The notes under the pieces were generated by a model. It ran no database searches, had not been told where the DNA came from, and was given only the letters and a program-made list of their open reading frames with translations. From Candidatus Scatonaster coprocaballi (GTDB lineage: Bacteria; Bacillota; Clostridia; Saccharofermentanales; Saccharofermentanaceae), in assembly GCA_018064475.1 (NCBI GenBank), contig JAGHVD010000013.1:9206-73205 (forward strand): 64,000 nucleotides of DNA, given 5' to 3'. Position numbers and translations under genes: made by a program. Shown in pieces: positions 8,086 through 62,105 of this stretch. Positions within the stretch are counted from its first letter, which is position 1, and every line of letters starts with the position of its first letter.

Positions 8086-9510
8086 ATGGTTGATCTCAAC
8101 GCGCCGGCATTCCTCCAGAGTGCCAACAAATTTGGAATCAAGCTGGGCTTGGAACGTATGCAGGCCCTCCTTCTGAAATTAGGAAATCCGGAAAAATCAC
8201 TTCATGCGTATCACATTGCCGGTACGAACGGCAAAGGGTCGGTCAGCGCGTATTGCGCGTCCATGCTGGCCTGGGATGGCAAGAAAGTCGGACTATATAC
8301 TTCCCCATTCTTGGAGCGTTTCTCAGAAAGGATCCGCGTGCTGGATGGACGGGAAGGACTGCTTACCTGGGAACAAGACGATACCTATGGGGAGATCGAT
8401 GCGAAGCGTCTCTCGGAACTCTCGGATCTTGTGGAGTCCAAGGTAGCGGAACTGATTGCTGAAGGACAGGAACACCCAACCGAGTTCGAGCTCGTGACGG
8501 CGGTGGCTTTCTTATATTTCAAAGAACAGCAGTGTGACGCAGTGGTACTGGAGACAGGCCTTGGCGGAAGACTGGATTCAACGAACGTAATCGAGCAGCC
8601 CGCTGCAACCATCATCACGGCACTGGGCTACGATCACATGGATCGCTTGGGCGATACCCTCGGGAAAATCGCCGGCGAGAAGGGCGGCATCATCAAGGAA
8701 GGTTGCCCGGTATTTGCTATCGATACTCATCAGTCCGCGGTAGAAGCCGCGGATGCGGAAGAAGCCAAGCAGGTCATAGAAGATATCGCCGCTTCTAAAC
8801 ATGCACCACTGACCTGGGTGCCGGTCCATGCAGCCGAGCGGACCAGCCAGAACCTGAACGGACAGATTTTTACTTATGAGGGGAAAACCTACAATATTCG
8901 CATGCACGGTGGTTATCAGCTGGATAATGCGACATTAGCGCTGACCGCCATGAAGGACTTCGTCTCACAAGAAGCGCGACAGGAAGGACTTGCCCATACC
9001 ATGTGGAAGGGACGCCTGGAAGCCATCTCCCAGCAGCCGACCATCATCCTGGACGGCGCACATAACCCACAAGGTATCACGTCATTCGTTGCTTTTACCG
9101 ACGAGATGGAAACACTCAAAGATCTTCCCCCGTGTGAAGTGATTATGGGCGTCATGGCGGACAAAGATGTCACGCAGATGCTCTCGATCCTAGTCGAGAA
9201 CTGGAACGTGCCGTTGGGTAGAATTACCCTAGTGACGCCACATCAGAAACGGGCCATGCCGGCGCAGGAACTCCGGGACGCATGGGAGCAGACTTTGCGG
9301 AATGGTTTTGCGTTTTACAATTCCAGTTCGTGTATGTATAATGCTAGGGAAAAACTGATTGTGGTGGAAGAATCCGAGGTCGCCTGCCGAAATGCAGTAG
9401 ACCGCGCGATCCGCACCGGTGCACCGATCTACATGATCGGCTCCCTCTATCTTCTTGGCGAAGCGAGAGGCGTCATCTTAGATGCACTGCACCAACACGG
9501 TCTGAAGTAA
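8086..9510 (+). CDS. folC: bifunctional folylpolyglutamate synthase / dihydrofolate synthase (Mur ligase family)
   Basis: P-loop HIAGTNGKGSV. Mur-ligase central and C-terminal domain organisation. Confidence 0.8.
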   Translation: MVDLNAPAFLQSANKFGIKLGLERMQALLLKLGNPEKSLHAYHIAGTNGKGSVSAYCASMLAWDGKKVGLYTSPFLERFSERIRVLDGREGLLTWEQDDTYGEIDAKRLSELSDLVESKVAELIAEGQEHPTEFELVTAVAFLYFKEQQCDAVVLETGLGGRLDSTNVIEQPAATIITALGYDHMDRLGDTLGKIAGEKGGIIKEGCPVFAIDTHQSAVEAADAEEAKQVIEDIAASKHAPLTWVPVHAAERTSQNLNGQIFTYEGKTYNIRMHGGYQLDNATLALTAMKDFVSQEARQEGLAHTMWKGRLEAISQQPTIILDGAHNPQGITSFVAFTDEMETLKDLPPCEVIMGVMADKDVTQMLSILVENWNVPLGRITLVTPHQKRAMPAQELRDAWEQTLRNGFAFYNSSSCMYNAREKLIVVEESEVACRNAVDRAIRTGAPIYMIGSLYLLGEARGVILDALHQHGLK

Positions 9511-9532
9511 GGAAAAAGACAGGACAGCACAT

Positions 9533-10546
9533 ATGGATTGGAAAACAGCAGGACAGACAATACCGGAAATCACCATCCGTGACTTGGTTGTTTTCCGTCT
9601 CCCACCGGAGGAGGCGGAGCAGCTCGCGCACCAGTACAATCGTGCGGTCTTTAACATCAATAACGATGGCGCAGATGTGGCCATCATCTCCCTGAAGAAG
9701 ATCATCACGGATCACCCGGACTGGGGCGAAGCTTCGTTACTGTTCGGTATCTGCGTGGCCCAGTGCGGCGAGTATCACAGATCGTTGGCCTGCTTCGAGC
9801 ACGCCCTGACCTGTGGCCTTCATTCCCAGTCCATGACGGAGCTTGCGCAGTTCTGTCTGGCCCAAGCCAAGACGGATTCGGATAAGGCGCAGAATGAAGC
9901 AGAGAAGAAAACATCTGAAGAATCTCCGTTAAAAGCACTGTCCACGTCCATTATGCGTCAGGAGTCGCCGATGGTGGCAGAGGCAGAGAACCGCGAACGC
10001 ATTCACGTGCAGGCGCCGATCCTCATCAAGGCGCCGAAGAAGCCGAGAAAGAGAAGGATTGCGACAGAGAAAGAGATTCGCGATGCACTGGCCCAGTCGA
10101 CCTCGTCAAATGGTGAGATCCCGGATGAAGAGATCAATGTAGATTTCCCCAAGACACCGGCCGAGAAAATGCGAACGACCTTGATCGTACTGGCTGTCAT
10201 TGCCGTACTGGTCGGACTGTTTTTCCTGGTTCGCTACGTCATTCTTCCTATATTCGACCGATCTGAAGCGAAGACGAATGAGAAGAAGATAGAATATTTG
10301 GAAGAAGCGCTCGCGGCGCACAAAGATGAGCCTGTTATCGCAGAGATCCTGGCGGGTTACCAACAAGAATTTGCCGAGGACGACGATACTGCAACGTCCA
10401 CTACAGAAACTTCTGTAGATGCGGAGACCACGACCACCGCAGAGACGACTACCGCAGAGACGACTACCGCGGACACGCCCGCGGAAACGACGGCAGAAGA
10501 TACTACCCCCGCAGACACCGTGGCAGACACTGCGAGTGAGACTTGA
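9533..10546 (+). CDS. hypothetical bitopic membrane protein with an N-terminal TPR-like region and a Thr/Glu/Ala-rich low-complexity C-terminal tail
   Basis: Single TM helix (LIVLAVIAVLVGLFFLV). The C-terminus is ETTTAETTTAETTTADTPAETTAEDTTPADT. Confidence 0.5.
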   Translation: MDWKTAGQTIPEITIRDLVVFRLPPEEAEQLAHQYNRAVFNINNDGADVAIISLKKIITDHPDWGEASLLFGICVAQCGEYHRSLACFEHALTCGLHSQSMTELAQFCLAQAKTDSDKAQNEAEKKTSEESPLKALSTSIMRQESPMVAEAENRERIHVQAPILIKAPKKPRKRRIATEKEIRDALAQSTSSNGEIPDEEINVDFPKTPAEKMRTTLIVLAVIAVLVGLFFLVRYVILPIFDRSEAKTNEKKIEYLEEALAAHKDEPVIAEILAGYQQEFAEDDDTATSTTETSVDAETTTTAETTTAETTTADTPAETTAEDTTPADTVADTASET

Positions 10547-10585: not shown

Positions 10586-12088
10586 ATGATGTACATGAGC
10601 ACAAGAGGATATGAGAAGAAGTTTACGGCTTCCGAAGCAATTAAGCAGGGTATTGCACCGGACGGCGGTCTGTTCGTACCGGAATCGATCCCACAATTAA
10701 GCAAGGAAGAGATCATGTCCATGACCGAGATGACTTACCCGCAGATTGCGGCAACTGTCCTCTCCAAGTTCTTGACGGATTTTACTTACGATGAACTCCT
10801 CGACTACACCCAGCAGGCCTATAGCGAAGAGAAGTTCGGTGAAGTTCCGGCTCCGCTGGTTCAGCTCAATAAGTACAACCCGAGAGAATATATGCTCGAA
10901 CTGTGGCATGGTCCGACGGCGGCCTTCAAGGATATGGCGTTGCAGCTTCTGCCACACCTCATGACTGCTTCGTCCAGAAAAACAGGCGAGAACAGAAAGA
11001 TCTGTATCCTGACTGCAACTTCCGGTGATACAGGTAAGGCGGCCCTTGAAGGATTCAAGGATCTTCCGGGTACAGAAGTTATTGTATTCTATCCGTCTGA
11101 AGGCGTATCCGACGCACAGAAACAGCAGATGATCACGACAGAAGGTAAGAACGTCCATGTTGTCGCAGTCAATGGTTGCTTCGACGATGCCCAGTCCGGC
11201 GTGAAGGCCATCTTCGGTGACCCGTCTGTGGCAGAGATCCTGAATAATCAGGGTTGCGTGCTGTCTTCTGCGAACTCCATCAACTGGGGCCGTCTGGTAC
11301 CTCAGATTGCGTACTATGTAGCTTCTTACGTGGAACTCCTGAAGAGAGAGGACTTTGTGTTCGGTGAACGAATGAATGTCGTCGTACCGACCGGTAACTT
11401 CGGCAACATCTTAGCCGCTTGGTATGCGAAGAAGATGGGTATCCCGATGAAGAAGCTCATCTGCGCATCCAACAAGAATAAGGTACTGTCCGACTTCTTT
11501 AGAAGCGGCACCTACGATCGCAACCGTGAGTTCTATAAGACCAATTCTCCATCCATGGATATCCTCATCTCCAGCAACTTGGAGCGTCTGCTCTTCGAGG
11601 TGACTGGTAAGGATGCAACGAAGACTGCAAAGTGGATGGAAGAACTGAAGACCAAGGGTGAGTATTCTGTCGACCCAGAGACACTCCATGTACTCCAGAC
11701 GACCTTTGTAGGTGGTTTTGCCGACGAAGCAGGAATCGTAAAGACCATTCGCGATGTCTATGACCGCTGTGACAACGTAGTGGATACCCATACTGCTGTA
11801 GGCTTCAATATCTACGGCCGTTACTACCAGAGATCCGGCGATGAGACCAAGACCGTGTTCGTCTCTACGGCAAGTCCTTTCAAGTTCGCACCGGCAGTTA
11901 TGGATGCCCTCAACGGCGCAGGCTATAGCAACGGCCGCTCCAATGAGGTCATCACCAACGAACTCTCCGAAGAAAGCGGACTTCCGATCCCAGCAGGCCT
12001 CAAGGACATCAACAAGAAGCCAGTCCTCCATAACCTTCTCATCGAGAAAGAGGACATGAGACAGACCGTACTGGATCTTCTAAAGTAA
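10586..12088 (+). CDS. thrC: threonine synthase (long form)
   Basis: N-terminus MSTRGYEKKFTASEAIKQGIAPDGGLFVP and PLP-lysine context FKD. Length 500 aa. Confidence 0.85.
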   Translation: MMYMSTRGYEKKFTASEAIKQGIAPDGGLFVPESIPQLSKEEIMSMTEMTYPQIAATVLSKFLTDFTYDELLDYTQQAYSEEKFGEVPAPLVQLNKYNPREYMLELWHGPTAAFKDMALQLLPHLMTASSRKTGENRKICILTATSGDTGKAALEGFKDLPGTEVIVFYPSEGVSDAQKQQMITTEGKNVHVVAVNGCFDDAQSGVKAIFGDPSVAEILNNQGCVLSSANSINWGRLVPQIAYYVASYVELLKREDFVFGERMNVVVPTGNFGNILAAWYAKKMGIPMKKLICASNKNKVLSDFFRSGTYDRNREFYKTNSPSMDILISSNLERLLFEVTGKDATKTAKWMEELKTKGEYSVDPETLHVLQTTFVGGFADEAGIVKTIRDVYDRCDNVVDTHTAVGFNIYGRYYQRSGDETKTVFVSTASPFKFAPAVMDALNGAGYSNGRSNEVITNELSEESGLPIPAGLKDINKKPVLHNLLIEKEDMRQTVLDLLK

Positions 12089-12133
12089 GCTTCTCTGAAA
12101 ACGATTCCAAGAACAGCAACCTGTTCCCTCCTT

Positions 12134-12167
12134 GCTCAGACAACATTTCGCTTCGCGAAATGAACTC
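12134..12167. repeat. left copy of a ~38-bp inverted repeat flanking the AT-rich island; it carries an internal 8-bp hairpin (catttcgc ttc gcgaaatg)
   Basis: ctcagacaacatttcgcttcgcgaaatgaactcg. The reverse complement of 13962..14000 matches it at about 92%. Confidence 0.6.
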
Positions 12168-12458
12168 GCAAATGAGAGAACAGGTTGCTGATCTTTGCCA
12201 CTCGTTCCTAGCCTCGCTGTACATGGTAAAATAACCTTGGCCGGTTCGGTGAGAGGGTGGGCTACATGACTATACTTTCCCAAGAAACCTTCTCATAGCA
12301 ATCCACCATTCATCGAGGTCCAAGATTTGTTCTGTTTACAGAAGTAACTTCTTATAGCAATGCAGTATAGCAAGTGCTTCCACCATCAGATTTTCGAGAA
12401 ATCCTTCATCTCGAAACAATAAGCAGTATATGAGTATGGAGATTTTTACTATGTTAAG

Positions 12459-13067
12459 GTGTACGATCATCCAACTATGAATGAGCAGAAAAATCCTAGT
12501 TATGGAGGAGACCAGGATTGGTTTACCGCACTTGGTGTTGAACAAGATAGTAAAAACTCGTTGATTGATGAAAATGGTTGTGGAGTAATAGCTTTGACTG
12601 ATTTGGTTCTGTACGATATGGTTCGAAATAGAGATGTTAGTTTTGCTGATTACTATGAACTAACTCGTTATACAGCAGATTTGATGATGTTTTCATTTTT
12701 CACACTAGGAACCTTGTTTACAGCGATTTGTCTTCGAATAAATTTAATGTCACTAGTAGAAAAAGGAGAACTAGTATGGGCGTCGGCGCAATTTGTAGAT
12801 AGGGACTCCGCGGCCTTTGCCTTGACGTCAATAACTGAAATGATGAGCGATTCTGAGTATGGACTTCGTAGCGTCAGTCTAGCAAGAGGTCACTACTTTA
12901 ATATCACAGGACTCGTGTATGATAAAATAGCGGATGAAGTATATTTGAGAGTTTCAAATGGAGGCATTGAAGAGTATATTCTTTTTTCGGAATATATTGA
13001 TTTGATAGAGAATAGGAGCCATAGTTGGGATGTTCTTGGCTGGGCGAATTTAATAATATGTTATTAA
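12459..13067 (+). CDS. hypothetical protein, possibly a papain-fold (C39-like) cysteine peptidase domain
   Basis: Visibly AT-rich gene. NGCGVIALTDLVLY resembles the C39/papain-like catalytic Cys context, with a downstream His (ARGHYFN). No recognisable homolog otherwise. Confidence 0.4.
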   Translation: MYDHPTMNEQKNPSYGGDQDWFTALGVEQDSKNSLIDENGCGVIALTDLVLYDMVRNRDVSFADYYELTRYTADLMMFSFFTLGTLFTAICLRINLMSLVEKGELVWASAQFVDRDSAAFALTSITEMMSDSEYGLRSVSLARGHYFNITGLVYDKIADEVYLRVSNGGIEEYILFSEYIDLIENRSHSWDVLGWANLIICY

Positions 13068-13095
13068 GAGCTTCTAGATACAGAAGGAGACGCAT

Positions 13096-13884
13096 ATGAA
13101 GAAAACTAGGGTAGTTGTCTGCGTAATATTCGCAGTATTGTTGATATCATTTTCACTCTTTGTTTATAGAACTACACGCAATCCCTTTCCGGAAGAGAAA
13201 CGTGAGGCGGATGCATTATATGCGGAACTTCAGAGTATTGAATGTACTCAAGAATACAAAAGATGGGATGAAAAATACATAGCATCTGGGGAACAGATAT
13301 GTATCTGCCTATGGGGAGATTGTGATTTGCAAGACATATTTGAAATCTCAGAACGAGCGAACGAATATCTTGAAACTCATCCAGATTCAATCATTAATAC
13401 GAGAAATATGGGGGTGTGCATAGAATTTTTCGATCATGAACCGAGCAGACATGATTATGAACGATATCGTTATTATGCCTGTGTGACGAAGAATCCAGAT
13501 GATGCGTTGATTAGTGAATTTGATATGAAAGCTTCGGCACCAGTAGAAGTGACAGATTTCCGTAATTGCTCGGTTCCATATAACCGAATCGGATTAACAT
13601 ATGCAGCTGATTTTCGCGATTCAGAAGCGTTGTTGACTGTTGAGGGATTAACAATGGTAGCTGTTCATTATGAAGTAGGATGTTCGAAAGAAGACATGTT
13701 GAGGGTCTTACAGGAAGTATGCTACTACGATGAACACGATATAAATCTCGATTTTTCTTTCGGATTTGGAGTTGGATCCGATGCCGAATTAGAAAGAATA
13801 TACAACGATTTTGTAAAAGCCCATGCAGATTATAAGGTGTTTCAGGATGAGAATGGGGAGTTGTTCTTATACGATGAGAACTGA
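13096..13884 (+). CDS. hypothetical membrane-anchored/secreted protein
   Basis: N-terminal signal/TM (VVVCVIFAVLLISFSLFVY). AT-rich. RBS GAAGGAGA upstream. Confidence 0.45.
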   Translation: MKKTRVVVCVIFAVLLISFSLFVYRTTRNPFPEEKREADALYAELQSIECTQEYKRWDEKYIASGEQICICLWGDCDLQDIFEISERANEYLETHPDSIINTRNMGVCIEFFDHEPSRHDYERYRYYACVTKNPDDALISEFDMKASAPVEVTDFRNCSVPYNRIGLTYAADFRDSEALLTVEGLTMVAVHYEVGCSKEDMLRVLQEVCYYDEHDINLDFSFGFGVGSDAELERIYNDFVKAHADYKVFQDENGELFLYDEN

Positions 13885-13952
13885 GTGACTACGCCTAAAA
13901 AGGGTGGAGGTGCTTCTCGAGCCCCCGAGAATCATAAGTAAAGAAAGAAAAC

Positions 13953-14017
13953 CGTCTCCGACACGAGTTTCATTTTGCGAAGCAAAATGTTGTCTGAGTG
14001 TAGGAGACGATTTTTTC
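13953..14017. terminator. bidirectional rho-independent terminator; its stem includes the right copy of the inverted repeat
   Basis: Outer stem cgtctcc...ggagacg around inner hairpin cattttgc gaa gcaaaatg. T-runs follow on both strands (attttttct on +, gttttctttcttt on minus). It sits between the convergent genes 13096..13884 (+) and prfC (-). Confidence 0.65.
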
Positions 14018-14048: not shown

Positions 14049-15662
14049 TCAGCGTTCGTGGATGTCATCCAGTCTGAGTCCTTCGTTATGCTCGAGTGCC
14101 CAGGAGATGGCCCATTCGGATTCGAAGAGGACGACCGGCATCTCGTCGCGGTCGAGGACCAGCATGGAGGTGGAGGTGAGTGTCAGCTTCGAGAAGTCGA
14201 TGTCGACGGACTCGTCCTGCTTGTTGCACCAACGTGCGAAGCGGTAGTTGAGATTGCTTCGAAGGATCTCGACGCCATACTCGGTGAGGAGACGATGTTC
14301 CAGAACTTCGAACTGTAGGACACCGACCACGCCCATGATGTAGGTCTCGGTACCGATGCCCGGCTGCTTGTAGAGCTGTACAGCACCTTCTTCGGAGAGC
14401 TGTTCAATACCCTTGAGGAACTGCTTTCTCTTCATGGAATCCTTAGGCTGTACCCGTGCGAAATGCTCCGGCGGGAAGACTGGTATGTTAGCGAAGTTGA
14501 AGTTCTTCGAGGAAGTGGTGACAGTATCGCCGATACGGAAGACACCTGGGTCGAAAAGACCGATGATGTCGCCTGCATACGCATCTTCGACAATGGTACG
14601 ATCCTGTGCCATGAACTGCTGCGGCTGGGCAAGCGTGATCTTCTTACCACTACGGATGTGCTTCACGGTCATGCCTTTCTCGAATTTGCCGGAGCAGATT
14701 CTCATGAAGGACATGCGGTCGCGGTGATTCGGGTCCATGTTGGCCTGAATCTTAAATACGAAGCCGGAGAAGAAATCTTCTGTCGGAGCGATGGTGCCCT
14801 CGGAAGAGTCGTGACTCTGCGGCCCCGGTGCAATCTCCAGAAACTTCTTCAGGAAAGGTTCGACGCCGAAGTTCGTGATGGCGGATCCGAAGAATACCGG
14901 AGTCAGTTCACCACTAAGGATCTTCTCGAGATCGAATGGGTCACCCGCCATGTCCAGAAGTTCGATGTCGTTCTTCAGTGTGTCGTAGTGATGCTGACTT
15001 AGGATCTTGCGAAGCGCCTCTTCATCGTTGATGCCGGCACTGATGGACTTGACCATGGAAGCACCGTGGTCCTTGGTCTCGTTGTCAAAGAGCAATACTT
15101 CTTCAGATTCACGAACGTATACGCCCTGGAAATCACCATCTGTACCGATCGGCCAGTTGATTGGTGTGGAACGGATGCCGAGTACTTTCTCCAATTCGTC
15201 AATCAGATCGAACGGATTCTTCGCCGCACGGTCCATCTTGTTGATGAATGTGAATATCGGAATACCACGCTTCCTACAAACTGTGAAGAGCTTGATGGTC
15301 TGGGCCTCGACACCTTTCGCACCGTCAAGAAGCATGACAGCGGCATCGGCGGCACAGAGTGTACGGTATGTATCTTCGGAGAAGTCTTGGTGACCAGGGG
15401 TGTCTAGGATGTTGATGCAGTATCCGTCGTAGTTGAACTGCATGACGGAAGAGGTGACGGAAATACCACGCTGTTTCTCAATCTCCATCCAGTCGGAAGT
15501 TGCGTGATGTGCAGCCTTACGAGCTTTGACGGAACCGGCCATGTGAATGGCACCGCCGTAAAGAAGAAGCTTCTCGGTCATGGTCGTCTTACCGGCGTCA
15601 GGGTGCGAGATGATCGCAAACGTGCGGCGACGAGAGATTTCATTTGTTACTGATTCGTCCAT
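14049..15662 (-). CDS. prfC: peptide chain release factor 3 (GTPase)
   Basis: RRRTFAIISHPDAGKTT G1 motif, DTPGHQDF G3 motif. Start chosen at MDESV behind an AGGAAGG RBS. The longer ORF begins 8 codons upstream. Confidence 0.85.
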   Translation of the reverse strand: MDESVTNEISRRRTFAIISHPDAGKTTMTEKLLLYGGAIHMAGSVKARKAAHHATSDWMEIEKQRGISVTSSVMQFNYDGYCINILDTPGHQDFSEDTYRTLCAADAAVMLLDGAKGVEAQTIKLFTVCRKRGIPIFTFINKMDRAAKNPFDLIDELEKVLGIRSTPINWPIGTDGDFQGVYVRESEEVLLFDNETKDHGASMVKSISAGINDEEALRKILSQHHYDTLKNDIELLDMAGDPFDLEKILSGELTPVFFGSAITNFGVEPFLKKFLEIAPGPQSHDSSEGTIAPTEDFFSGFVFKIQANMDPNHRDRMSFMRICSGKFEKGMTVKHIRSGKKITLAQPQQFMAQDRTIVEDAYAGDIIGLFDPGVFRIGDTVTTSSKNFNFANIPVFPPEHFARVQPKDSMKRKQFLKGIEQLSEEGAVQLYKQPGIGTETYIMGVVGVLQFEVLEHRLLTEYGVEILRSNLNYRFARWCNKQDESVDIDFSKLTLTSTSMLVLDRDEMPVVLFESEWAISWALEHNEGLRLDDIHER

Positions 15663-29761: not shown

Positions 29762-29951
29762 ACTGCTGTCCTCCTATAGGGTTAAGAAGTAGGGATCATG
29801 TATTTAAATCACCATTTTGAGTATAACAAAACGATGCGGAAAAATATAACAGTTTTCATGCTCAAAATAGCATTTTCATGCTTTAAAATATCTGCTTTTC
29901 GGGGCAAATTCGAGCAAACCGACTTGCGCGAAGAAACTTTCGCAATTTTGA

Positions 29952-41962: not shown

Positions 41963-42092
41963 ACGCTCTAGGACGAACTCGGCCTGCGGTTCGTAATCCG
42001 CCTTGCTAATCCACCCGTCGCATGCCCCCAGCACTTGAGCAGAACTCCAGATTAACCAAAACTTGCTTAAATCACTTGCATTTAGTCGCGTT

Positions 42093-42199
42093 TCAGCTCA
42101 TCAGCCTTGAGACGTGGAGCATGTCGTAAATTTCATGAGACCCTTCGCCATAGTCGCCCAATGGATTCTCATCACCGGAGGTGAACAGAATAGACTCGT
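42093..42199 (-). pseudogene. remnant of the 3' end of an alpha/beta-hydrolase gene (divergent paralog of 45530..46474)
   Basis: The minus-strand translation is RKNESILFTSGDENPLGDYGEGSHEIYDMLHVSRLMS. It aligns with KNKPILLISGDEDPVGDYGEGPQEIYDKL of the intact hydrolase. An in-frame stop lies immediately upstream, so only about 36 codons survive. Confidence 0.45.
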
Positions 42200-42356
42200 T
42201 CTTTCTCACTTATTCCCCAGACAAGTCTTTCTTCCGAGGAAGAAACCTTGAGCTTGATGCTTGAAGCGCTGTACAGAATGAGACAAAAAGTAAAGAAGAC
42301 TTGCATTTTGAAAAAAAAAAAATAGAATTATAGAAGTTTGATTTGGGAGGATGACT

Positions 42357-43214
42357 ATGAACAAGAGAATTAAGAATGCGGTGATATGTGGCTTGGTAGC
42401 GTTAGTTACTTTTGTGAACTCAGTTTCGATGATGAAATCACAGAAACAGGCAGCGACGACGACTTACAATCAAGACAAAGTGAAAAGTAACATTTACGCA
42501 CAAGCGAAAGTTGTATGGGATATAGAAGCCGATATTACAGTGAGTGAAAAGAGCGATAAAACAGTTAGTTATAAGAAAAATACTTGGTATCAGGGTATGC
42601 CATATACTCAGTTAGCAGATTATTCGCTGAAAGACTTTGCTTCCTGTTGTTGTATGCATAATGTGCAACGTAGTAAGGTGACTGAAACTAACCTGCTGAG
42701 TAGAAGTTATTTAGTTCAAATTGATCTCAGAAAGTTTGATGGTTGCAAAAATCTAAGAATAGGCAACGACTGTTCGACTGCTGTAGCTGTAGCATGGAGA
42801 TCCTGTAACAATTCTTTACGGATTGAAGATATTGATACTTCCACATTCTTAAGTTGTGCAAAGAGTGGTAGTTATAGCACCTACCATTTGAAAACAGTTG
42901 GGGGCTATAGTATTGGTTCATATACTGATACAAAATCATTTTTGAGCAAAAATGAAAATAAGAGTATAATAAAAAACTGTTATGCTAAACTCAAAATTGG
43001 TGATGCCGTATTCTATAGATCTGGTGGCAAAGGGCACGCTATGATGGTAGTGGCTACCGGAAGCAATTGTGTTTATGTAATTGAACAGTGTGGCCTCAGC
43101 GATAAAAGAACAGTACAACGAACATCATGGGAAGTTGAGAAAAAGTACACATACGATGATCTTATTAAAAGTGGATATCTACCAATTTATAGTACTGATG
43201 TGAGGAAGTCATGA
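42357..43214 (+). CDS. hypothetical secreted protein, possible papain-fold cysteine peptidase/amidase
   Basis: AT-rich. N-terminal signal peptide. Candidate Cys (NDCSTAVAVAW) and His (GGKGHAMMVVATG) pair. RBS GGGAGG. Confidence 0.45.
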   Translation: MNKRIKNAVICGLVALVTFVNSVSMMKSQKQAATTTYNQDKVKSNIYAQAKVVWDIEADITVSEKSDKTVSYKKNTWYQGMPYTQLADYSLKDFASCCCMHNVQRSKVTETNLLSRSYLVQIDLRKFDGCKNLRIGNDCSTAVAVAWRSCNNSLRIEDIDTSTFLSCAKSGSYSTYHLKTVGGYSIGSYTDTKSFLSKNENKSIIKNCYAKLKIGDAVFYRSGGKGHAMMVVATGSNCVYVIEQCGLSDKRTVQRTSWEVEKKYTYDDLIKSGYLPIYSTDVRKS

Positions 43215-45517
43215 GCGAGAGCAACATGAAACGAAAATTAGCCGTTGGGCTAGTCATCATTATGCTATTGGGTATATTGCCTAGTTGCTCACTCTCTCAG
43301 AGCAAGCGTGAGGTCGGAAATGGGGACTCGAGTAAGGAAATGTCACTCTCTATTTCTCAAAGCAATCTTTCCGAGCAGTATTTTCAAGCCGTAGATATGA
43401 TAAGTGGCGTGGACCAAGCAGATACTGCACACAGAATTCTGGGTGCCGCTTTGTCAGCAAACGAGGAGTTTCTCTTTGTTTCATCTGACGAGTGTATCTC
43501 GGTCGAACGGTATGATCAAGAGGGATTGTTTATTTCTAGTTTCTCACAAGAGACTCCATATGTGTATGACAATGGAGGTCGAGGTTTCTACGAAGAAGGA
43601 CGACTGTTTTTTGCCGGATTCTTTGGGCCGATGATGGATGTGTATGAAGTGAATCTGGAGAAAGAGGAAATGAGTAACATCATCCATGTTGATTTGTCGA
43701 AGGATGTTGAGCAACAAGGCTTTTTTCTTAGAGTAATTGGTTTTCGTCATTCTGTTGTATATGCGATGGTGTTGAATGACTTTGGACAAGTAATGATTGG
43801 CTACAGCATTGAAACAGGAGAAGAAGTTTTCCGAACGAAATCGGGTATATCTGGAAACAAGTTCTTCTGGATTCAGGATCAGTTATATGCCTATAATACT
43901 GAAAGAATGCCTAAACAACTTTGGCAAGTTGATGCTGATGGGCAAGGCTCACAAATTCAGAACGAGCAGGACAATGTGAAGTGGGAGGAGTTCTGTTTTG
44001 AAAATGGGAGACAGTTAGTCAGGGATACGGATGGTATTTGGTTCTTTGATGAACGGGGCGTACTTACAAATCTTGTTTCGTTTGCGAATTCCGAGGTGAA
44101 TAGTACGATGCTACTTTCGAATGCTTGTTTTGCAGTTTCTAATCAACTTGACCGCGTGGTACTCTTTGATATCGAAGGAAGAGCGAGTCTTCTGTTTCCT
44201 GGGGAGGGCGACGCGAAAGATAAACAGACGTTGACGCTTGCTTGTGTGGATGCCTCGGGTTCAGAATGGTTGAATTGGGCAATCTATAAGTTCAATAAAG
44301 AGAATGAAGATTACAGAATCGTCTTGAAAGATTATTATTGTTCTATTGATGAGACGAAGTACTTGGATGAAGATGGTGATGTCGATTACTCTGCGGTATA
44401 TGATGCTTCGGAAGAATTGCTTTGGAAGGATGTGGTTTCCGGCCAAGGACCGGATCTGATTCTTCGAGAGAATGGAATCGGGGATAAGATAGGTTCTGCT
44501 TATTTGGACAATTGTGGTTTTATTCAGGATTTGTACCCCCAGTGGTGTGAAGAGAGCGAGGAGTGGAAACAACAGTTTATGTCCCCACTATTTACGCAGG
44601 TTCAGCAACAAGGCAGACTGATGAGTGTGCCAATCGGTATGATGCTCATGTCGGTTGAACTCAATTCGAGATGTGCATTGAGCGAGTGTGGAACGTACAA
44701 AGATACATATAACTATCTTGAAAGTGCATCTGATATTCGCTTCCTTACATGGACGACGAAGGAAGCGTACTTGAAGAAGATGCTTGCGATGGATATGGAT
44801 AGTTTTGTAAATCGAGATCTCAATCAAGCAAATTTCGATAGCGAAGCATTTCAGTACTTACTTTGTCTTTGTAACGAGTATTGTATGTCAAACGAAGAGG
44901 CTGAGATGATTTACGATGAATCAATCATGTTATTCCGAGAGTCGGTAGATGGAGAAGGAGGGAACAACTACCTGACTTATACATATCGACCGATAACAAA
45001 TACTGAGAAACGCAAGAGTGAAACAGGTGTAGTGAGTGGGTATCCTATGGGCCACGAGTGTGACGCATGTGTCGATTATTCCTATCTGATTTCTATTTCA
45101 TCTGCATGCCGGAATAATGTGGCGGCATGGGACTTTATCAAGTACATGTTAAGTGAAGAAGTCCAAAGATACACACCGGATTGGCTTGGTTGCCCTTATT
45201 CACCAATGGTGCGGCGAGATGTTCTTTCTGAGATGATGGATTGCTATGAACATCCGGAAGATCATATGGATTATTGGGATGCTGGTGGTGAATGGGATAG
45301 TGATGTTCTAGGACTGAACAGCTATTCAGAAGATGAGATACAAAGTTTCTTGGATTTCTTTGATTCAACACATCACTTTTACTATTATGATATAGAAATC
45401 ATCGATATAGTGTTGGAAGAATCTGCCCATTATTTCTCAGGAAATAAAGATATGGATAGTGTTGTGCAAACGATAAACAATCGGGTCCAAGTGGTATTGG
45501 ACGAACGTGATTCGTAA
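43211..45517 (+). CDS. large hypothetical lipoprotein with a solute-binding-protein-like C-terminal region
   Basis: Lipobox LLGILPSCS. The C-terminal AAWDFIKYMLSEEVQ block is typical of family-1 extracellular solute-binding proteins. AT-rich. Distant paralog of 56558..58951. Confidence 0.5.
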   Translation: MSESNMKRKLAVGLVIIMLLGILPSCSLSQSKREVGNGDSSKEMSLSISQSNLSEQYFQAVDMISGVDQADTAHRILGAALSANEEFLFVSSDECISVERYDQEGLFISSFSQETPYVYDNGGRGFYEEGRLFFAGFFGPMMDVYEVNLEKEEMSNIIHVDLSKDVEQQGFFLRVIGFRHSVVYAMVLNDFGQVMIGYSIETGEEVFRTKSGISGNKFFWIQDQLYAYNTERMPKQLWQVDADGQGSQIQNEQDNVKWEEFCFENGRQLVRDTDGIWFFDERGVLTNLVSFANSEVNSTMLLSNACFAVSNQLDRVVLFDIEGRASLLFPGEGDAKDKQTLTLACVDASGSEWLNWAIYKFNKENEDYRIVLKDYYCSIDETKYLDEDGDVDYSAVYDASEELLWKDVVSGQGPDLILRENGIGDKIGSAYLDNCGFIQDLYPQWCEESEEWKQQFMSPLFTQVQQQGRLMSVPIGMMLMSVELNSRCALSECGTYKDTYNYLESASDIRFLTWTTKEAYLKKMLAMDMDSFVNRDLNQANFDSEAFQYLLCLCNEYCMSNEEAEMIYDESIMLFRESVDGEGGNNYLTYTYRPITNTEKRKSETGVVSGYPMGHECDACVDYSYLISISSACRNNVAAWDFIKYMLSEEVQRYTPDWLGCPYSPMVRRDVLSEMMDCYEHPEDHMDYWDAGGEWDSDVLGLNSYSEDEIQSFLDFFDSTHHFYYYDIEIIDIVLEESAHYFSGNKDMDSVVQTINNRVQVVLDERDS

Positions 45518-45529
45518 TGGTTGCTGTAT

Positions 45530-56247: not shown

Positions 56248-56557
56248 CGTGCAACTAATATTCTGCGCCGCCTAGATCCCCGAAGTTTCCGTATAATTTC
56301 CACGCTTCTGCCCATCCGTGGAAAAAATATGGAAAAACTCCGGCCGCGCCGTAAAAAATCGCAAAAAACTTCAAACTACGCTTATATCAAAGGTTAACAC
56401 AAAGCCTTCTAAGAAGAGCAAGAAGTTATTCCGAAAATGACCAGACTATTCGTTCATTGAAAATATTAATTTCTAGGTGACCGAAATGTCATTTTTCTTT
56501 TACAGTGCATTTGTACAATGATGGTAATAAACGATGTTTGATTCGGAGGTACATACG

Positions 56558-58951: not shown

Positions 58952-59080
58952 TCTGTATCGTTATATTTGCGGTAGAAATTCTACGCCAAATCCTTTGAGT
59001 GAATTGACAGAAACCGCAAGGGGGAGTATAGTTTATCCAATAATCATAGAAAATGACGTGGAAGAGAAGAGTACTTTCTG

Positions 59081-59318
59081 AAACCCGATACAGAGAATCC
59101 GGCTGGCTGAGAGCGGAGCGGCAATTTCTGGAAGGAACATGGTCTCGGAGTCGCAGGGGCGAGTGATTATCATTAGGTCCTGCCGGGTACACCCGTTACA
59201 GTGTGAGGCTGTCGATTGATTTCCGCAGCCAGTGAGGCATAGTAATATGCGAAGTAAAGTGGTACCACGAAGTTTCGGCTCTCGTCTTTATGCAGAATAA
59301 GGACGAGGGCTTTTTTGT
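59081..59318 (+). ncRNA. T-box riboswitch leader upstream of metG (candidate AUG specifier)
   Basis: AGAGA-like motif (cagagaa) near the 5' end. Candidate specifier AUG in gaaggaacAUGg. T-box consensus-like aaAGTGGTACCACGaag at 59254..59275. The terminator stem ctcgtc...gacgag is followed by tttttt at 59311. Confidence 0.5.
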
Positions 59319-59428
59319 AGTGTATAACGATGTTACAAATATCGGGATACCACCGCTTAGATGTCCGGTAGATGAAACGGAAACGTTACGTTCTTTGAAC
59401 AAAATAAGTTCTTTTACAGGAGGGCGTT

Positions 59429-61495: not shown

Positions 61496-61572
61496 GTGCA
61501 GCTGTGATGAGCGCAGTGCTTGGATTGGGGTTTCCTGAGAACGGCGCAACGCGAACGAAATGAAACGCGGAG

Positions 61573-61911
61573 ATGAAATTGAATCAGCATCTGGACGCTT
61601 GGAAAGCATGTTTCAAATACCCATGTCCTAGAATCGATCTGTCCAAACTTCGACAGAAAGCCCAGTCGGCCGTGATTACTAAGGAAGTCTACGATAGTCT
61701 TGTGCCACTATCGAACAAGCATCCAGTTACGAATCCCAATCCTTACAAAGGCATCGCTTTTCGCTCGAAGTCTGAACGGGAGATGGCGGAGTATTTGGAT
61801 TCAGTAGGCATTGAGTACAAATATGAGCCGCTCATGCATATTGGCGCCGAGAACATTGTTATTAAACAGGAAGAAGAGGTCGGAAGTGGCAACGCTCCTT
61901 CCAAAAGATAA
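61573..61911 (+). CDS. short ORF resembling the N-terminal part of a phage-type (DUF1064-like) small nuclease; possibly a truncated remnant
   Basis: ...YKGIAFRSKSEREMAEYLDSVGIEYKYEPL... resembles the G-I-x-F-D/R-S-K-x-E block of DUF1064-like proteins. The ORF ends prematurely and has no good RBS. Confidence 0.25.
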   Translation: MKLNQHLDAWKACFKYPCPRIDLSKLRQKAQSAVITKEVYDSLVPLSNKHPVTNPNPYKGIAFRSKSEREMAEYLDSVGIEYKYEPLMHIGAENIVIKQEEEVGSGNAPSKR

Positions 61912-62105
61912 GAGACGGCTCTTTCTAATGAAAATCGTTTGCCGTGAAAAACACCTCAAAATGGAAGATTTCATCGATTTTTCTTTCTTTTGGTATGAAA
62001 TGTAATTGTAATAATGACGATTCTGTTGTAGAATTTTATCGGTGCGATTTTGTGCACAATTTCATTAACAATCCCCATTCGGGGAAAATATAGGAGGATT
62101 TTAAC

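What the first reader, a model, noticed from the sequence alone, without database searches (positions are those of the whole stretch)
12100..14017. AT-rich ~1.8-kb island with two hypothetical genes bounded by ~38-bp inverted repeats that each contain a hairpin
Between thrC and prfC the composition drops visibly to AT-rich. Two unrecognised genes sit there: a 202-aa protein with a papain/C39-like NGCGVIAL Cys context, and a 262-aa signal-anchored protein. The segment is bracketed by ctcagacaacatttcgcttcgcgaaatgaactcg (12134..12167) and, in inverted orientation, cacgagtttcattttgcgaagcaaaatgttgtctgagtg (13962..14000). That is roughly 92% identity over about 37 nt with one indel. Each copy is nested within a longer palindrome: cagcaacctgttc...gaacaggttgctg on the left, cgtctcc...ggagacg on the right. 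The right copy doubles as the bidirectional terminator for prfC. This looks like a small mobile or cassette-like insertion with terminal inverted repeats, or a pair of dispersed REP-like palindromic elements that captured foreign DNA. No transposase or integrase is present.
Basis: seen in the sequence. Interest (0 to 1): 0.65.

Follow-up and report, generated by a model that had tools for sequence, protein, structure and literature searches.

The report
Decayed accessory genes between twin terminators
The AT-rich stretch is a half-deleted, horizontally acquired two-gene module sitting in a variable spot between thrC and prfC. Its "terminal inverted repeats" are a 35-base hairpin motif capping the two flanking terminators; the motif also occurs at other genes in related bacteria, so this is not a transposon-like cassette.

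Summary
A 30-nt, 93% inverted repeat (12135-12164 / 13969-13998) brackets a segment of about 39% GC. Each copy sits at the apex of a different long hairpin.

The mobile-cassette reading does not hold.
- The right copy (E_R) is the ancestral apical motif of the prfC terminator. Orthologous copies occur in six related species, including one with an empty 135-nt thrC-prfC spacer.
- The left copy (E_L) is a lineage-specific second copy. Similarity stops at the ~35-nt core.
- E-like cores also cap terminators at two unrelated loci in related genomes (L070, L071).
- The same gene module at other loci (L064, L074) has no E.

Across species the thrC-prfC spacer runs from 20 nt to 6.8 kb and carries unrelated cargo, so it is an accessory-gene hotspot.

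"ORF1" is a pseudogene fragment. It is the last ~200 codons of a ~1250-aa secreted CBM_2/TSP3 protein with a C-terminal papain-fold, C39-like domain. It lacks the 5' ~3 kb and has a 102-nt internal deletion. ORF2 is that protein's conserved lipoprotein-like partner.

E is best described as a low-copy, REP-like, structured terminator-apex element. Stem covariation is strong and the loop bases TCA.AC / AACTCG are invariant. How it spreads is unknown. Interest is modest.

The parts
10586..12088 (+). thrC (threonine synthase), the left core gene of the convergent pair
   Evidence: Pfam Thr_synth_N, PALP and THR4_C. The thrC/prfC pair is convergent in relatives down to about 60% ThrC identity.
12109..12195 (+). 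Left composite hairpin, 22 nt after the thrC stop: a unique outer stem carrying the E_L core at its apex. It is the likely thrC terminator, with a weak T-run.
   Evidence: Inverted repeat I2. RNA fold -45.6 kcal/mol, z -7.0. Model R1 scores 54.6 bits. Present in all same-species contigs (L001, L002, L005, L068). Absent from L010 because of a deletion.
12135..12168 (+). E_L: 34-nt core, CTCAGACAA + 8-bp stem / TTC loop + AACTCG. It has the same sense as the thrC transcript.
   Evidence: It differs from E_R by one compensatory base-pair change and one A indel. The sequences outside the core are not similar.
12196..12437 (+). Remnant of the upstream (promoter/leader) region of the large gene
   Evidence: 98-100% identical to L006 positions 1-264 and 434-479, which lie upstream of the intact 1258-aa gene.
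12438..12448 (.). Junction of the deletion that removed about 3.2 kb of the 5' part of the large gene; includes 9 nt of unknown origin
   Evidence: Alignment of the window with L006 and L069.
12449..13067 (+). 'ORF1' (ATG at 12477, 196 aa): 3' fragment of a gene for a ~1250-aa secreted CBM_2/TSP3 protein. It encodes a damaged papain-fold, C39_2-like C-terminal domain and is probably a pseudogene.
   Evidence: 44% identical to residues 1021-1258 of the L006 protein. 99% nt identity to L069 and 94% aa identity to P0004, which extend about 650 codons upstream. Family invariant Cys and His; 6 of 21 members give weak Peptidase_C39_2 hits. An AF2 model of family member P0010 has pLDDT 89.5, and its PDB fold matches are almost all papain-fold enzymes, all weak.
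12847..12851 (+). GCGAT microhomology at a 102-nt in-frame internal deletion, which removes the conserved '(G)KPVITS' strand of the domain
   Evidence: Window compared with L069. Protein alignment. P148 is invariant and V149 nearly invariant in the family.
13096..13884 (+). ORF2: 262-aa membrane-anchored or lipoprotein-like protein, the conserved downstream partner of the large gene. This allele is only 49% identical to the other allele in the species.
   Evidence: Only two 90%-identity clusters among 5.8 billion proteins. Homologues lie directly after the large gene in L006, L064 (33% identity, E 4e-47) and L074 (hhalign probability 96.8%). Lipobox-like N-termini in the homologues. The AF2 model is poor, pLDDT 55.6.
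13948..14014 (-). Right composite hairpin: bidirectional terminator of prfC and of ORF2, with an outer stem unrelated to the left one and T-runs on both strands
   Evidence: Inverted repeat I8. Folds -34.2 and -35.8 kcal/mol, z about -6. R1 scores 73.4 bits.
13964..13998 (-). E_R: 35-nt core with the same sense as the prfC transcript; the ancestral apical motif of the prfC terminator
   Evidence: Orthologous E-like cores after prfC in L010, L015, L016, L017, L019, L020 and L037. Stem covariation with invariant loop bases.
14049..15662 (-). prfC (peptide chain release factor 3), the right core gene
   Evidence: Pfam GTP_EFTU and RF3_C. The start at 15662 comes from ribosome-binding-site spacing and an exact protein match in public assemblies.

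Best explanation
The region consists of two convergent intrinsic terminators that enclose a decaying accessory locus in a gene-turnover hotspot. It has three layers.

(1) The thrC-> <-prfC spacer is a hotspot. In this rumen Oscillospiraceae lineage, different species carry nothing or unrelated cargo there.

(2) In this species group the cargo is an AT-rich, horizontally acquired two-gene module. The first gene encodes a ~1250-aa secreted protein with CBM_2 and TSP3 domains and a papain-fold, C39-like cysteine-peptidase domain at its C-terminus. The second encodes a lipoprotein-like partner (ORF2). In the window the large gene has lost its 5' ~3.2 kb and a further 102 nt, so 'ORF1' is a pseudogene fragment. 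ORF2 is still open.

(3) The 'terminal inverted repeats' are a discrete ~35-nt structured core (E). It has an 8-bp stem with a triloop, flanked by invariant unpaired bases TCA.AC(A) and AACTCG, and sits at the apex of two otherwise unrelated terminator hairpins. Each copy has the sense of the gene it follows. E_R is the ancestral prfC copy. E_L is a later copy placed in the hairpin after thrC.

E belongs to a low-copy family that caps terminators of other genes in related genomes. It therefore behaves like a REP-like extragenic element rather than the end of a transposon.

Shown: the anatomy, the orthology of E_R, the hotspot, the decay of the large gene, the independence of module and repeat, the stem covariation, and E-like cores at other loci.

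Inferred: that the hairpins terminate transcription; that E_L was copied from E_R or from a third copy; that the module arrived by recombination in the flanking core genes; and that the invariant loop bases are a recognition site, either for a mobilising enzyme or for an RNA- or DNA-binding protein.
For: Hotspot. The gap between the thrC and prfC stops ranges from 20-193 nt (L015, L018, L023, L024, L029, L035, L038, L040) to 0.7-6.8 kb. The cargo in the larger gaps is unrelated: acetyltransferase, GGDEF-EAL, ECF sigma factor with a DUF4179/DUF5643 protein, FtsX transporter with a histidine kinase, and a zinc-ribbon membrane protein.

Module and decay. L006 carries the intact 1258-aa gene plus an ORF2 allele between the same E_L and E_R. 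L069 carries the window's allele with the missing 102 nt, plus its own stop codon. L010 is a still more deleted version that has also lost E_L. The module's GC is about 0.39-0.42 against 0.52 in the flanks, in two different hosts. Between L010 and L005/L006 the island is 97-98% identical, while the adjacent thrC end is only 89-90% identical.

Repeat. E_R-like cores follow prfC in seven relatives, including the empty site in L015. On 10 sequences, 90.7% of cells are paired, 13 of 16 pairs change on both sides, and slid controls give 40-53%. Columns TCA.AC and AACTCG are invariant. Flanks outside the core are not similar (p 0.79 and 0.40). Covariance model R1 finds only the two copies in the window and only prfC-linked copies in 705 kb of related loci. 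Further E-like cores cap a hairpin after a 448-aa gene that reads as glutamate dehydrogenase by eye (L070), and sit in a different convergent spacer that is syntenic with window 54.9-62.6 kb (L071).

Indirect sign of a further copy. k=31 contigs from six samples stop at 13995-13998 coming from the island side, and contigs from two samples stop at 13970 coming from the prfC side. The overlap is 26 nt, which equals 2x30-34 and is what an exact 34-nt repeat elsewhere would produce. k=141 assemblies read through.

The module without E is seen in L064, L074 and L075.
Against: - The copy number of E within any one genome is unknown. Only 64 kb of the source genome was available, and it holds no copy other than the pair.
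- My first whole-genome scan used a wrong loop length, so its zero hits mean nothing.
- An exact E pattern found nothing in JGI metagenomes or viral contigs.
- The E alignment represents only about five independent lineages or loci, so conservation of the loop bases partly reflects shared descent.
- Termination was not measured. The simple terminator scan did not list either hairpin (by its stated criteria their nested stems fall outside its loop limit of 3-8 nt), and the T-run after the left hairpin is weak.
- How E_L arose is not shown.
- The contig-end argument could also reflect assembler behaviour or population heterogeneity at E_R.
- ORF1 could still be translated from ATG 12477 as a stand-alone protein.
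Confidence: 0.6

Rival explanations
1. Mobile cassette or non-autonomous transposon. E_L and E_R are terminal inverted repeats recognised by a transposase supplied in trans, and the whole segment moved into the thrC-prfC spacer as a unit.
For: A 30-35-nt inverted repeat at 93% identity brackets a compositionally foreign segment. Homologous modules sit at different chromosomal sites in other organisms.
Against: E_R-like cores are present in species without the module, including the empty 135-nt site in L015. The module at other sites (L064, L074, L075) has no E. E-like cores occur singly at other genes. There is no target-site duplication and no transposase. Allelic breakpoints lie inside the repeats. 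There are no matches to plasmids, phages or viral contigs.
Confidence: 0.05
2. Purely local origin. E is just the prfC terminator of this lineage, and E_L is a one-off inverted duplication of it, for example by template switching at a hairpin when the module was inserted. There is no dispersed family and no mobility. The similarity in L070 and L071 is distant common ancestry or coincidence.
For: Model R1 finds no further copies in the 64-kb window or in 705 kb of related loci outside the thrC-prfC spacer. Exact-pattern scans of JGI metagenomes and viral contigs were empty.
Against: L070 and L071 score 56-58 bits with R1. They share the invariant loop bases and the nested architecture, at loci unrelated to prfC. 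Similarity between E_L and E_R stops sharply at the core, which a segmental duplication would not require. The k=31 contig ends fit a third exact 34-nt copy.
Confidence: 0.2
3. Recombination sites. The two inverted E copies are substrates of a site-specific recombinase that inverts the intervening segment, or of an integrase that loads cargo next to E. That would explain the hotspot.
For: The repeats are inverted and flank a gene for a surface protein. Cargo turnover happens in this spacer. Contigs break at E_R.
Against: Every contig shows the same orientation, and k=31 contigs read through E_L without a break, which argues against an inverting population. Inverting a whole two-gene unit between two terminators would change nothing obvious. 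In other species the cargo lies on the thrC side, separated from E by other conserved hairpin remnants. No recombinase gene is adjacent.
Confidence: 0.05
4. Functional toxin-immunity (or protease-inhibitor) pair. ORF1 is an 'orphan' C-terminal toxin module and ORF2 is its immunity protein, kept as an active two-gene unit insulated by terminators.
For: The architecture (a large secreted protein with a variable C-terminal enzymatic domain, followed at 10-28 nt by a small gene) recurs in L006, L064, L074 and L075. Both genes have very divergent alleles (44-49% identity) inside 97-98% identical flanks.
Against: ORF1 lacks a conserved core strand (102-nt deletion) and has no secretion or anchoring part. 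L069 and L010 show independent inactivation. The ORF1 and ORF2 alleles are not co-inherited: L005 has a window-type ORF1 with the other ORF2 allele. There is no recognised toxin-trafficking domain and no PADLOC hit. ORF2 looks extracytoplasmic.
Confidence: 0.1

Closest known systems
REP / BIME elements and REPINs (repetitive extragenic palindromes mobilised by RAYT transposases; PMC3116915, PMC3337134)
   Same: E is a ~35-nt imperfect palindrome with conserved non-palindromic bases. It is extragenic, lies just after the 3' ends of genes, occurs at several unrelated loci in related genomes, and here forms an inverted pair.
   Different: Copy number appears low (none besides the pair in 64 kb). 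The two copies are 1.8 kb apart, not a tight REPIN doublet. Each core is nested singly in the apex of a unique outer stem. No RAYT gene was seen, though only 64 kb could be inspected. The host is an uncultured Clostridia lineage, not the proteobacterial and cyanobacterial genomes named in the abstract of PMC3116915.
Rho-independent (intrinsic) bidirectional terminators between convergent genes
   Same: The hairpins start within a few to about 35 nt of the stop codons of convergent genes. They are very stable, the right one has A/T-runs on both sides, and stem covariation shows the structure is maintained.
   Different: Ordinary terminators conserve structure, not sequence. Here 11-13 unpaired bases of an internal loop are invariant across species and loci, while both the inner and outer stems change.
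Chromosomal hotspots of horizontal gene transfer flanked by core genes (Oliveira et al. 2017, PMC5635113)
   Same: A single core-gene interval concentrates gene gain and loss. No mobile-element genes are present. The island is more similar between lineages than the flanking core gene, as expected for exchange by homologous recombination.
   Different: Nothing essential. This is an instance in an uncultured rumen lineage.
MITEs and composite transposons with terminal inverted repeats
   Same: Inverted repeats bracket an AT-rich segment that has no transposase.
   Different: There is no target duplication. One 'end' predates the insert. The repeats and the cargo occur independently of each other.
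Peptidase_C39_2 (PF13529) / clan CA papain-fold cysteine peptidases, such as staphopain with its staphostatin partner
   Same: The family has an invariant Cys (GCG motif) and His (GHY.T.TG motif). The model has a papain fold. A small partner gene lies immediately downstream.
   Different: Similarity to the Pfam model is below or at threshold. The domain sits at the C-terminus of a CBM_2/TSP3 surface protein. The partner is lipoprotein-like and has no detectable relatives of known function. The window copy is truncated.

Membership tests
Transposon / MITE bounded by terminal inverted repeats | Terminal inverted repeats at both ends | tested here: met
   30 nt at 93%, extending to about 35 nt with one indel.
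Transposon / MITE bounded by terminal inverted repeats | Target-site duplication directly outside the repeats | tested here: not met
   The sequences outside the cores are unrelated and show no direct repeat.
Transposon / MITE bounded by terminal inverted repeats | The empty site lacks the element's ends | tested here: not met
   The empty 135-nt spacer of L015, and six other relatives, carry an orthologous E core after prfC.
Transposon / MITE bounded by terminal inverted repeats | Ends and cargo travel together (same unit at other sites), or a transposase is present | tested here: not met
   The module occurs without E in L064, L074 and L075. E occurs without the module in L070 and L071. There is no transposase in the segment.
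REP / REPIN elements | Short imperfect palindrome with conserved non-palindromic bases, in extragenic positions | tested here: met
   A 34-35-nt core, an 8-bp stem, invariant TCA.AC and AACTCG, always located after stop codons.
REP / REPIN elements | Many dispersed copies within one genome | tested here: inconclusive
   Two copies in 64 kb, both at this locus. Four distinct loci across related genomes. Indirect sign of one more exact copy. The whole-genome scan was spoiled by a mis-specified pattern.
REP / REPIN elements | Closely spaced inverted doublet forming one hairpin (REPIN) | tested here: not met
   The copies are 1804 nt apart, and each is nested singly in its own outer stem.
REP / REPIN elements | Cognate RAYT (Y1 transposase) gene in the genome | not testable with these tools
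   Only the 64-kb window of the source genome is available.
Intrinsic terminator | Stable stem-loop directly after a stop codon, followed by a U-run | tested here: inconclusive
   Both hairpins are very stable and lie 22-35 nt after the stops. The right one has T-runs on both strands; the left one has only a weak T-run. The simple scan does not list them. No 3'-end data.
Integron cassette (attC) | attC sites in direct orientation with R''/R' core sites (GTTRRRY), and an integrase or attI nearby | tested here: not met
   By eye on the sequence: the copies are inverted, there is no GTTRRRY core, and no integrase gene is adjacent.
Peptidase_C39_2 / papain-fold cysteine peptidase (ORF1) | Match to the Pfam model above its gathering score | tested here: not met
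   ORF1 has no Pfam hit at E <= 1. Six of 21 family members give weak hits, the best being 23.0 bits against a cut-off of 24.
Peptidase_C39_2 / papain-fold cysteine peptidase (ORF1) | Conserved catalytic Cys and His on a papain fold | tested here: met
   This applies to the family, not to the window copy. Cys and His are invariant. The AF2 model of P0010 has pLDDT 89.5, and its PDB fold matches are almost all papain-fold enzymes, all weak (best E 2.3e-4, TM 0.44/0.55).
Peptidase_C39_2 / papain-fold cysteine peptidase (ORF1) | Complete domain in the window copy | tested here: not met
   A 102-nt in-frame deletion removes the conserved PV-containing strand, and the gene lacks its 5' ~3.2 kb.
Polymorphic toxin - immunity pair | Large secreted protein with a variable C-terminal enzymatic domain, followed by a small cognate gene | tested here: inconclusive
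   The architecture and allelic divergence fit. However, there is no known trafficking domain, the partner looks extracytoplasmic, and the alleles are not co-inherited.

The most novel reading that the evidence does not exclude
E, and a second motif F seen in the same spacer of sister species, would represent an undescribed class of miniature elements in rumen Oscillospiraceae. Under this reading they are copied specifically into the apical loops of existing terminator hairpins. That would explain a conserved ~35-nt core with invariant unpaired bases nested in unique outer stems at different genes. Alternatively, E is a conserved 3'-UTR RNA motif recognised by a dedicated protein. In either case the invariant internal loop is a specific recognition site, and the pair in this window records a recent local copying event.
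Probability: 0.25. Interest if true: 0.6.

Novelty: new member of a known kind. Interest (0 to 1): 0.35.

Why it matters
For annotation: 'inverted repeats around AT-rich genes' should not be read here as a mobile cassette. One of the two 'hypothetical genes' is a gene fragment and should be flagged as a pseudogene. The other belongs to a conserved two-gene module (a surface protein tipped with a C39-like peptidase, plus a lipoprotein) whose function is untested.

For biology: the thrC-prfC spacer is a clean example of a hotspot free of mobile-element genes in an uncultured rumen lineage. Intact, half-deleted and nearly erased states of the same locus co-exist in public metagenomes.

The part that may be new is the E core. 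A sequence-conserved internal loop inside otherwise free-evolving terminator hairpins, found at several genes, points to a specific recognition event, whether mobilisation or RNA/DNA binding. That is cheaply testable by scanning complete genomes and metatranscriptomes.

Tried and rejected
- the scan of GTDB genomes for E used the pattern ...GCNNNNGC..., but the loop is 3 nt. The zero hits are therefore meaningless and must not be read as absence. The correct pattern could only be run on JGI metagenomes (0 hits) and viral contigs (0 hits).
- Rfam: no family reached its gathering score anywhere in the window. Permissive scans of both hairpins gave only generic hairpin matches far below threshold, including CRISPR-DR63 at 17 of 37 bits on both copies. 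Rejected.
- No tRNA or tmRNA that could serve as an integration site.
- Pfam and NCBIfam on ORF1 and ORF2: nothing. PADLOC: nothing.
- A PDB sequence search with the family profiles found nothing meaningful.
- The AF2 model of ORF2 was too poor (pLDDT 55.6) to use for a fold search.
- Exact-protein look-ups with the wrong start codons failed.
- The R1 hit at 29843-29899 (17 bits) is an AT-rich divergent promoter region, not an E copy.
- I tested whether the E_L/E_R homology extends into the outer stems. It does not.
- Inversion of the segment was considered and rejected, because all contigs share one orientation and E_L is read through.
- An integron attC reading was rejected on orientation and sequence.
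Full report
**1. The observation**

- The repeat finder reports arms 12135-12164 and 13969-13998, 30 nt and 93% complementary, 1804 nt apart.
- With one A indel the match runs to the conserved ACTCG, so the cores are 12135-12168 (+) and 13964-13998 (-).
- A degenerate 29-mer matches only these two places in 64 kb and none in 100 shuffles.
- It is the best inverted repeat in the whole window.
- The two substitutions fall on the two sides of one base pair of the inner stem (CATTTCGC/GCGAAATG against CATTTTGC/GCAAAATG). By my own estimate, two random changes in 30 nt would do this about 1% of the time (1/29 x 1/3). Pairing has therefore been selected since the copies separated.
- Each core sits at the top of a longer palindrome with a different sequence: 12109-12133/12171-12195 on the left and 13948-13964/13998-14014 on the right.
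- The composite hairpins are very stable on either strand: -34 to -57 kcal/mol, z -5.9 to -7.0.
- GC is 0.37-0.41 between them and 0.50-0.55 outside.
- thrC and prfC are confirmed by Pfam.
- Relative to the transcripts of these two convergent genes, both cores have the same sense.

**2. The spacer is a hotspot, and the island is an insertion**

I fetched 54 loci encoding ThrC relatives. The convergent thrC/prfC pair is conserved down to about 60% ThrC identity. The distance between the two stop codons varies widely.
- Short spacers: 20-56 nt in L035, L038 and L040; 87-193 nt in L015, L018, L023 and L024.
- Long spacers: 0.7-2.8 kb in L011, L014, L016, L017, L019-L022, L025 and L037; 6.8 kb in L012.

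The cargo is unrelated from one species to the next: a maltose-acetyltransferase-like protein, a GGDEF-EAL protein, an ECF sigma factor next to a DUF4179/DUF5643 protein, FtsX permeases with a histidine kinase, and a zinc-ribbon membrane protein. L013, where no prfC lies within 7 kb, has a ricin/fn3 surface protein downstream of thrC.

None of the cargo proteins scanned with Pfam is a recombinase or transposase. This is the pattern described for chromosomal hotspots that lack mobile elements and turn over by recombination in flanking core genes (PMC5635113).

**3. What the two genes are**

ORF2 has only one other 90%-identity cluster among 5.8 billion proteins (P0002, 49% identity). Look-ups of contigs encoding these proteins recovered the same locus from other samples, with flanks 97-98% identical but different contents.
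- L005 has a 92%-identical ORF1 together with the P0002 allele of ORF2.
- L006 has, between the same E_L and E_R, an intact 1258-aa gene followed by P0002.

The 1258-aa protein has CBM_2 and bacterial TSP3 repeats. Its last 238 residues align with ORF1 at 44% identity.

An exhaustive HMMER search with ORF1 found 59 relatives. Many are C-terminal domains of proteins of about 840 to 1410 aa, several of which carry CBM_2, TSP3, DUF7305 or VWA domains. Others are stand-alone proteins of about 220-290 aa.

The family has invariant Cys (GCG) and His (GHY.T.TG) residues. Six of 21 members give weak Peptidase_C39_2 hits, the best at 23.0 bits against a cut-off of 24. An AF2 model of member P0010 (pLDDT 89.5) finds almost only papain-fold enzymes in the PDB, all weakly (best E 2.3e-4, TM 0.44/0.55).

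The window copy is a wreck.
- P0004 and L069 carry the window's own allele (94% aa, 99% nt). They extend about 650 codons further upstream and contain 102 nt that the window lacks.
- That deletion lies between two GCGAT repeats (12847-12851). It removes the conserved '(G)KPVITS' strand (P148 is invariant and V149 nearly invariant).
- Upstream, window 12196-12437 matches the leader region of the L006 gene. Homology then jumps at 12438-12448 to codon ~1010, so about 3.2 kb are missing.
- Even the codons before ATG 12477 (..KVYDHPT) are still the coding sequence of the large gene.

ORF1 is therefore a 3' fragment, most likely a pseudogene.

Decay is recurrent. L069 has a 660-nt deletion and a stop codon. 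L010, the closest species representative, keeps only 123 nt of the domain plus ORF2.

ORF2 is the conserved partner.
- A homologue lies 10-28 nt after the large gene in L006.
- In L064 it is 33% identical (E 4e-47), at an unrelated chromosomal site.
- In L074 hhalign gives 96.8% probability.
- In L075 a downstream gene is present but cut off.
- The homologues have lipobox-like N-termini.

ORF2's function is unknown. It has no Pfam, NCBIfam, PADLOC or PDB relatives, and the model is poor.

The module is AT-rich in both hosts examined: 0.39-0.42 against 0.52. Between L010 and L005/L006 the island is 97-98% identical, while the adjacent end of thrC is only 89-90% identical. Both facts fit horizontal exchange.

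**4. What the repeat is**

The sequence after the prfC stop codon in L010, L015, L016, L017, L019, L020 and L037 has the same architecture as E_R. Reading from the stop codon:
- an outer stem whose sequence differs between lineages;
- a short closing stem;
- the unpaired bases (C/T)TCA(G/A)ACA;
- an inner stem that covaries (CATTTTGC, TTTTTCGC, ATTTGCC, GTTTGC);
- a 3-4-nt loop;
- the unpaired bases (A)AACTCG;
- the return strands and a T-run.

L015 has this in an otherwise empty 135-nt spacer. E_R is therefore older than the island and cannot be the end of an inserted element.

On ten sequences, 90.7% of cells pair and 13 of 16 pairs show changes on both sides. Every shuffle and every slid register does far worse, at 40-53% paired (the earlier eight-sequence count is). 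Columns TCA.AC and AACTCG never vary.

E_L exists only in the window's species group (L001, L002, L005, L006, L068). L010 lacks it, but L010's deletion spans that position, so E_L may predate the split between the two.

Outside the ~35-nt core, the left and right hairpins are no more alike than shuffled sequences (p 0.79 and 0.40). The unit that was copied is the core, not the terminator.

A covariance model built from these sequences (R1) finds only the two copies in the window (73.4 and 54.6 bits). The next hit, at 17 bits, is not an E copy. In 705 kb of related loci it finds only the prfC-linked copies. E is therefore not a common terminator motif.

It is not locus-specific either. A general pattern run on JGI metagenomes found two more, scoring 56-58 bits with R1.
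- L070: the core caps a hairpin 45 nt after a 448-aa gene that reads as glutamate dehydrogenase by eye (no family scan was run).
- L071: the core lies in the convergent spacer between a 462-aa membrane-protein gene (MATE-like by eye; no family scan was run) and a gene on the other strand. L071 is syntenic with window 47.7-62.6 kb at 75-86% identity. At that position the window has 5.7 kb of extra genes and no E.

Each of these has its own outer stem.

Conversely, the gene module in L064, L074 and L075 has no E nearby. Repeat and cargo are independent.

There are no matches to plasmids, phages or viral contigs and no Rfam family.

**5. An indirect sign of further copies**

Six k=31 (Logan) contigs from six sequencing runs come from the island side and stop at 13995 (four contigs), 13997 or 13998. 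Two k=31 contigs from the prfC side stop at 13970. One run (SRR18398357) supplies a contig from each side.

The two sets overlap by 26 nt instead of the k-1 = 30 expected at a simple junction. That is exactly what an exact 34-nt repeat (13966-13999, essentially the E_R core) present elsewhere in the sample would give (2x30-34 = 26), because the 4-k-mer middle unitig is discarded.

k=141 assemblies and the MAGs read through (L003, L006, L007, L010). The k=31 contigs also read through E_L, whose core differs at the compensatory pair.

I take this as moderate evidence for at least one more E_R-type copy in these genomes. It also argues against an inverting population. It remains an inference; I could not retrieve the other copy.

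**6. Mechanism, with steps marked**

Shown:
- the spacer is a turnover hotspot;
- the island is a deletion derivative of a two-gene accessory module that also exists elsewhere without the repeats;
- E_R is ancestral at prfC;
- E is a discrete structured core found at several genes.

Inferred:
- The composite hairpins act as terminators that insulate the module from thrC and prfC. The right one is bidirectional; the left one has only a weak T-run and was not picked up by the simple scan.
- The module entered and is exchanged by homologous recombination in the flanking core genes.
- E_L was copied from E_R, or from a third copy, into the apex of the hairpin after thrC.
- The invariant internal-loop bases are a recognition site.

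Whether that recognition serves mobilisation (REP/RAYT-like; PMC3116915) or an RNA- or DNA-binding function cannot be decided here.

**7. Comparison with known systems**

- The closest analogues of E are REP elements: same size, an imperfect palindrome with conserved unpaired bases, and a position at the 3' ends of genes.
- Several REP features were not established. High copy number is unproven, the REPIN doublet structure is not met, and a RAYT gene could not be looked for.
- The single nesting of each core in a unique outer stem is unusual for REPs.
- Transposon or MITE membership fails on three of four defining features.
- An integron attC reading fails on orientation and sequence.
- The locus as a whole is an ordinary hotspot free of mobile elements.

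**8. Verdict**

The cassette interpretation is not supported, and the 'REP-like elements' alternative is partly supported. The island is ordinary: a decaying accessory locus. The E core is a small, possibly new family of terminator-apex elements. Overall interest is 0.35.

Noticed in passing
L013, L016, L017, L018, L020, L021, L024, L025: thrC-prfC spacers (e.g. L017 8534-8563, L018 8642-8671, L025 9576-9605): A second conserved terminator-apex motif, F (TCGCTGGTCCTCGGGC - loop - GCCCTGCGGAATCGCTC), is also nested in outer stems that differ between species. It occurs after thrC or after prfC, and once in the opposite orientation. It has the same design as E: a conserved asymmetric internal loop with variable stems.
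   Followed up: partly
L018 ~8560-8693 and L025 ~9500-9627 (after prfC): Only the 3' half of the E hairpin survives (..TTTGCGAAAAAACTCGCCGT.CAGATGTTTTTCTTT). The 5' half is replaced by an F hairpin, and the breakpoint lies in E's apical loop. This suggests that hairpin loops are the sites of rearrangement.
   Followed up: no
window 13966-13999; contigs L001, L002, L005, L008, L009, L069, L072, L073: All k=31 public contigs stop at the edges of the E_R core (13995-13998 from one side, 13970 from the other, 26-nt overlap), whereas k=141 contigs read through. This fits an exact 34-nt repeat elsewhere in the samples. The other copy was not found.
   Followed up: partly
L007 (ENA ERZ27234665 k141_201369), 1-1953: This MEGAHIT contig has a 141-nt terminal overlap, i.e. 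a circular path of 1812 nt. It joins window ~14290 (inside prfC, antisense) to ~12457 (the start of the ORF1 remnant). It could be a chimera, a tandem duplication or a circle; this is unresolved.
   Followed up: partly
window 42000-45520: A second AT-rich stretch (GC 0.37-0.43) holds a 287-aa secreted protein with Cys (GNDCSTAVA) and His (GKGHAMMVV) motifs at 42351-43214. It overlaps a 768-aa lipoprotein-like gene at 43211-45517. This may be another peptidase-plus-lipoprotein accessory pair.
   Followed up: no
window 56248-61970, compared with L071 14001-14196: In L071 the convergent spacer between the 462-aa membrane-protein gene (MATE-like by eye) and the 299-aa gene is about 200 nt and holds an E-like terminator. 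In the window the same spacer holds 5.7 kb with two large genes (56534-58951 +, 59414-61609 -) and no E. This looks like a second hotspot of the same kind.
   Followed up: partly
L010 8301-9798, compared with L005, L006 and the window: Between the L010 lineage and the window's species, the island remnant and the prfC 3' end are 96-98% identical, but the last 220 nt of thrC are only 89-90% identical. This points to recent exchange of the island side of the locus across lineages.
   Followed up: partly
L064 9300-9450: Downstream of the homologous module in L064, ahead of an ECF-transporter gene, lies a sequence that looks like an FMN riboswitch (..CAGGGCGGGGTGGAATTCCCCACCGGCGGT..). This was not checked against Rfam.
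   Followed up: no
window 13799-13884: The last ~28 codons of ORF2 are identical between the two 49%-identical alleles. The allelic breakpoint (~13799) therefore lies inside the gene, and the divergent part is a recombining cassette within a conserved frame.
   Followed up: partly
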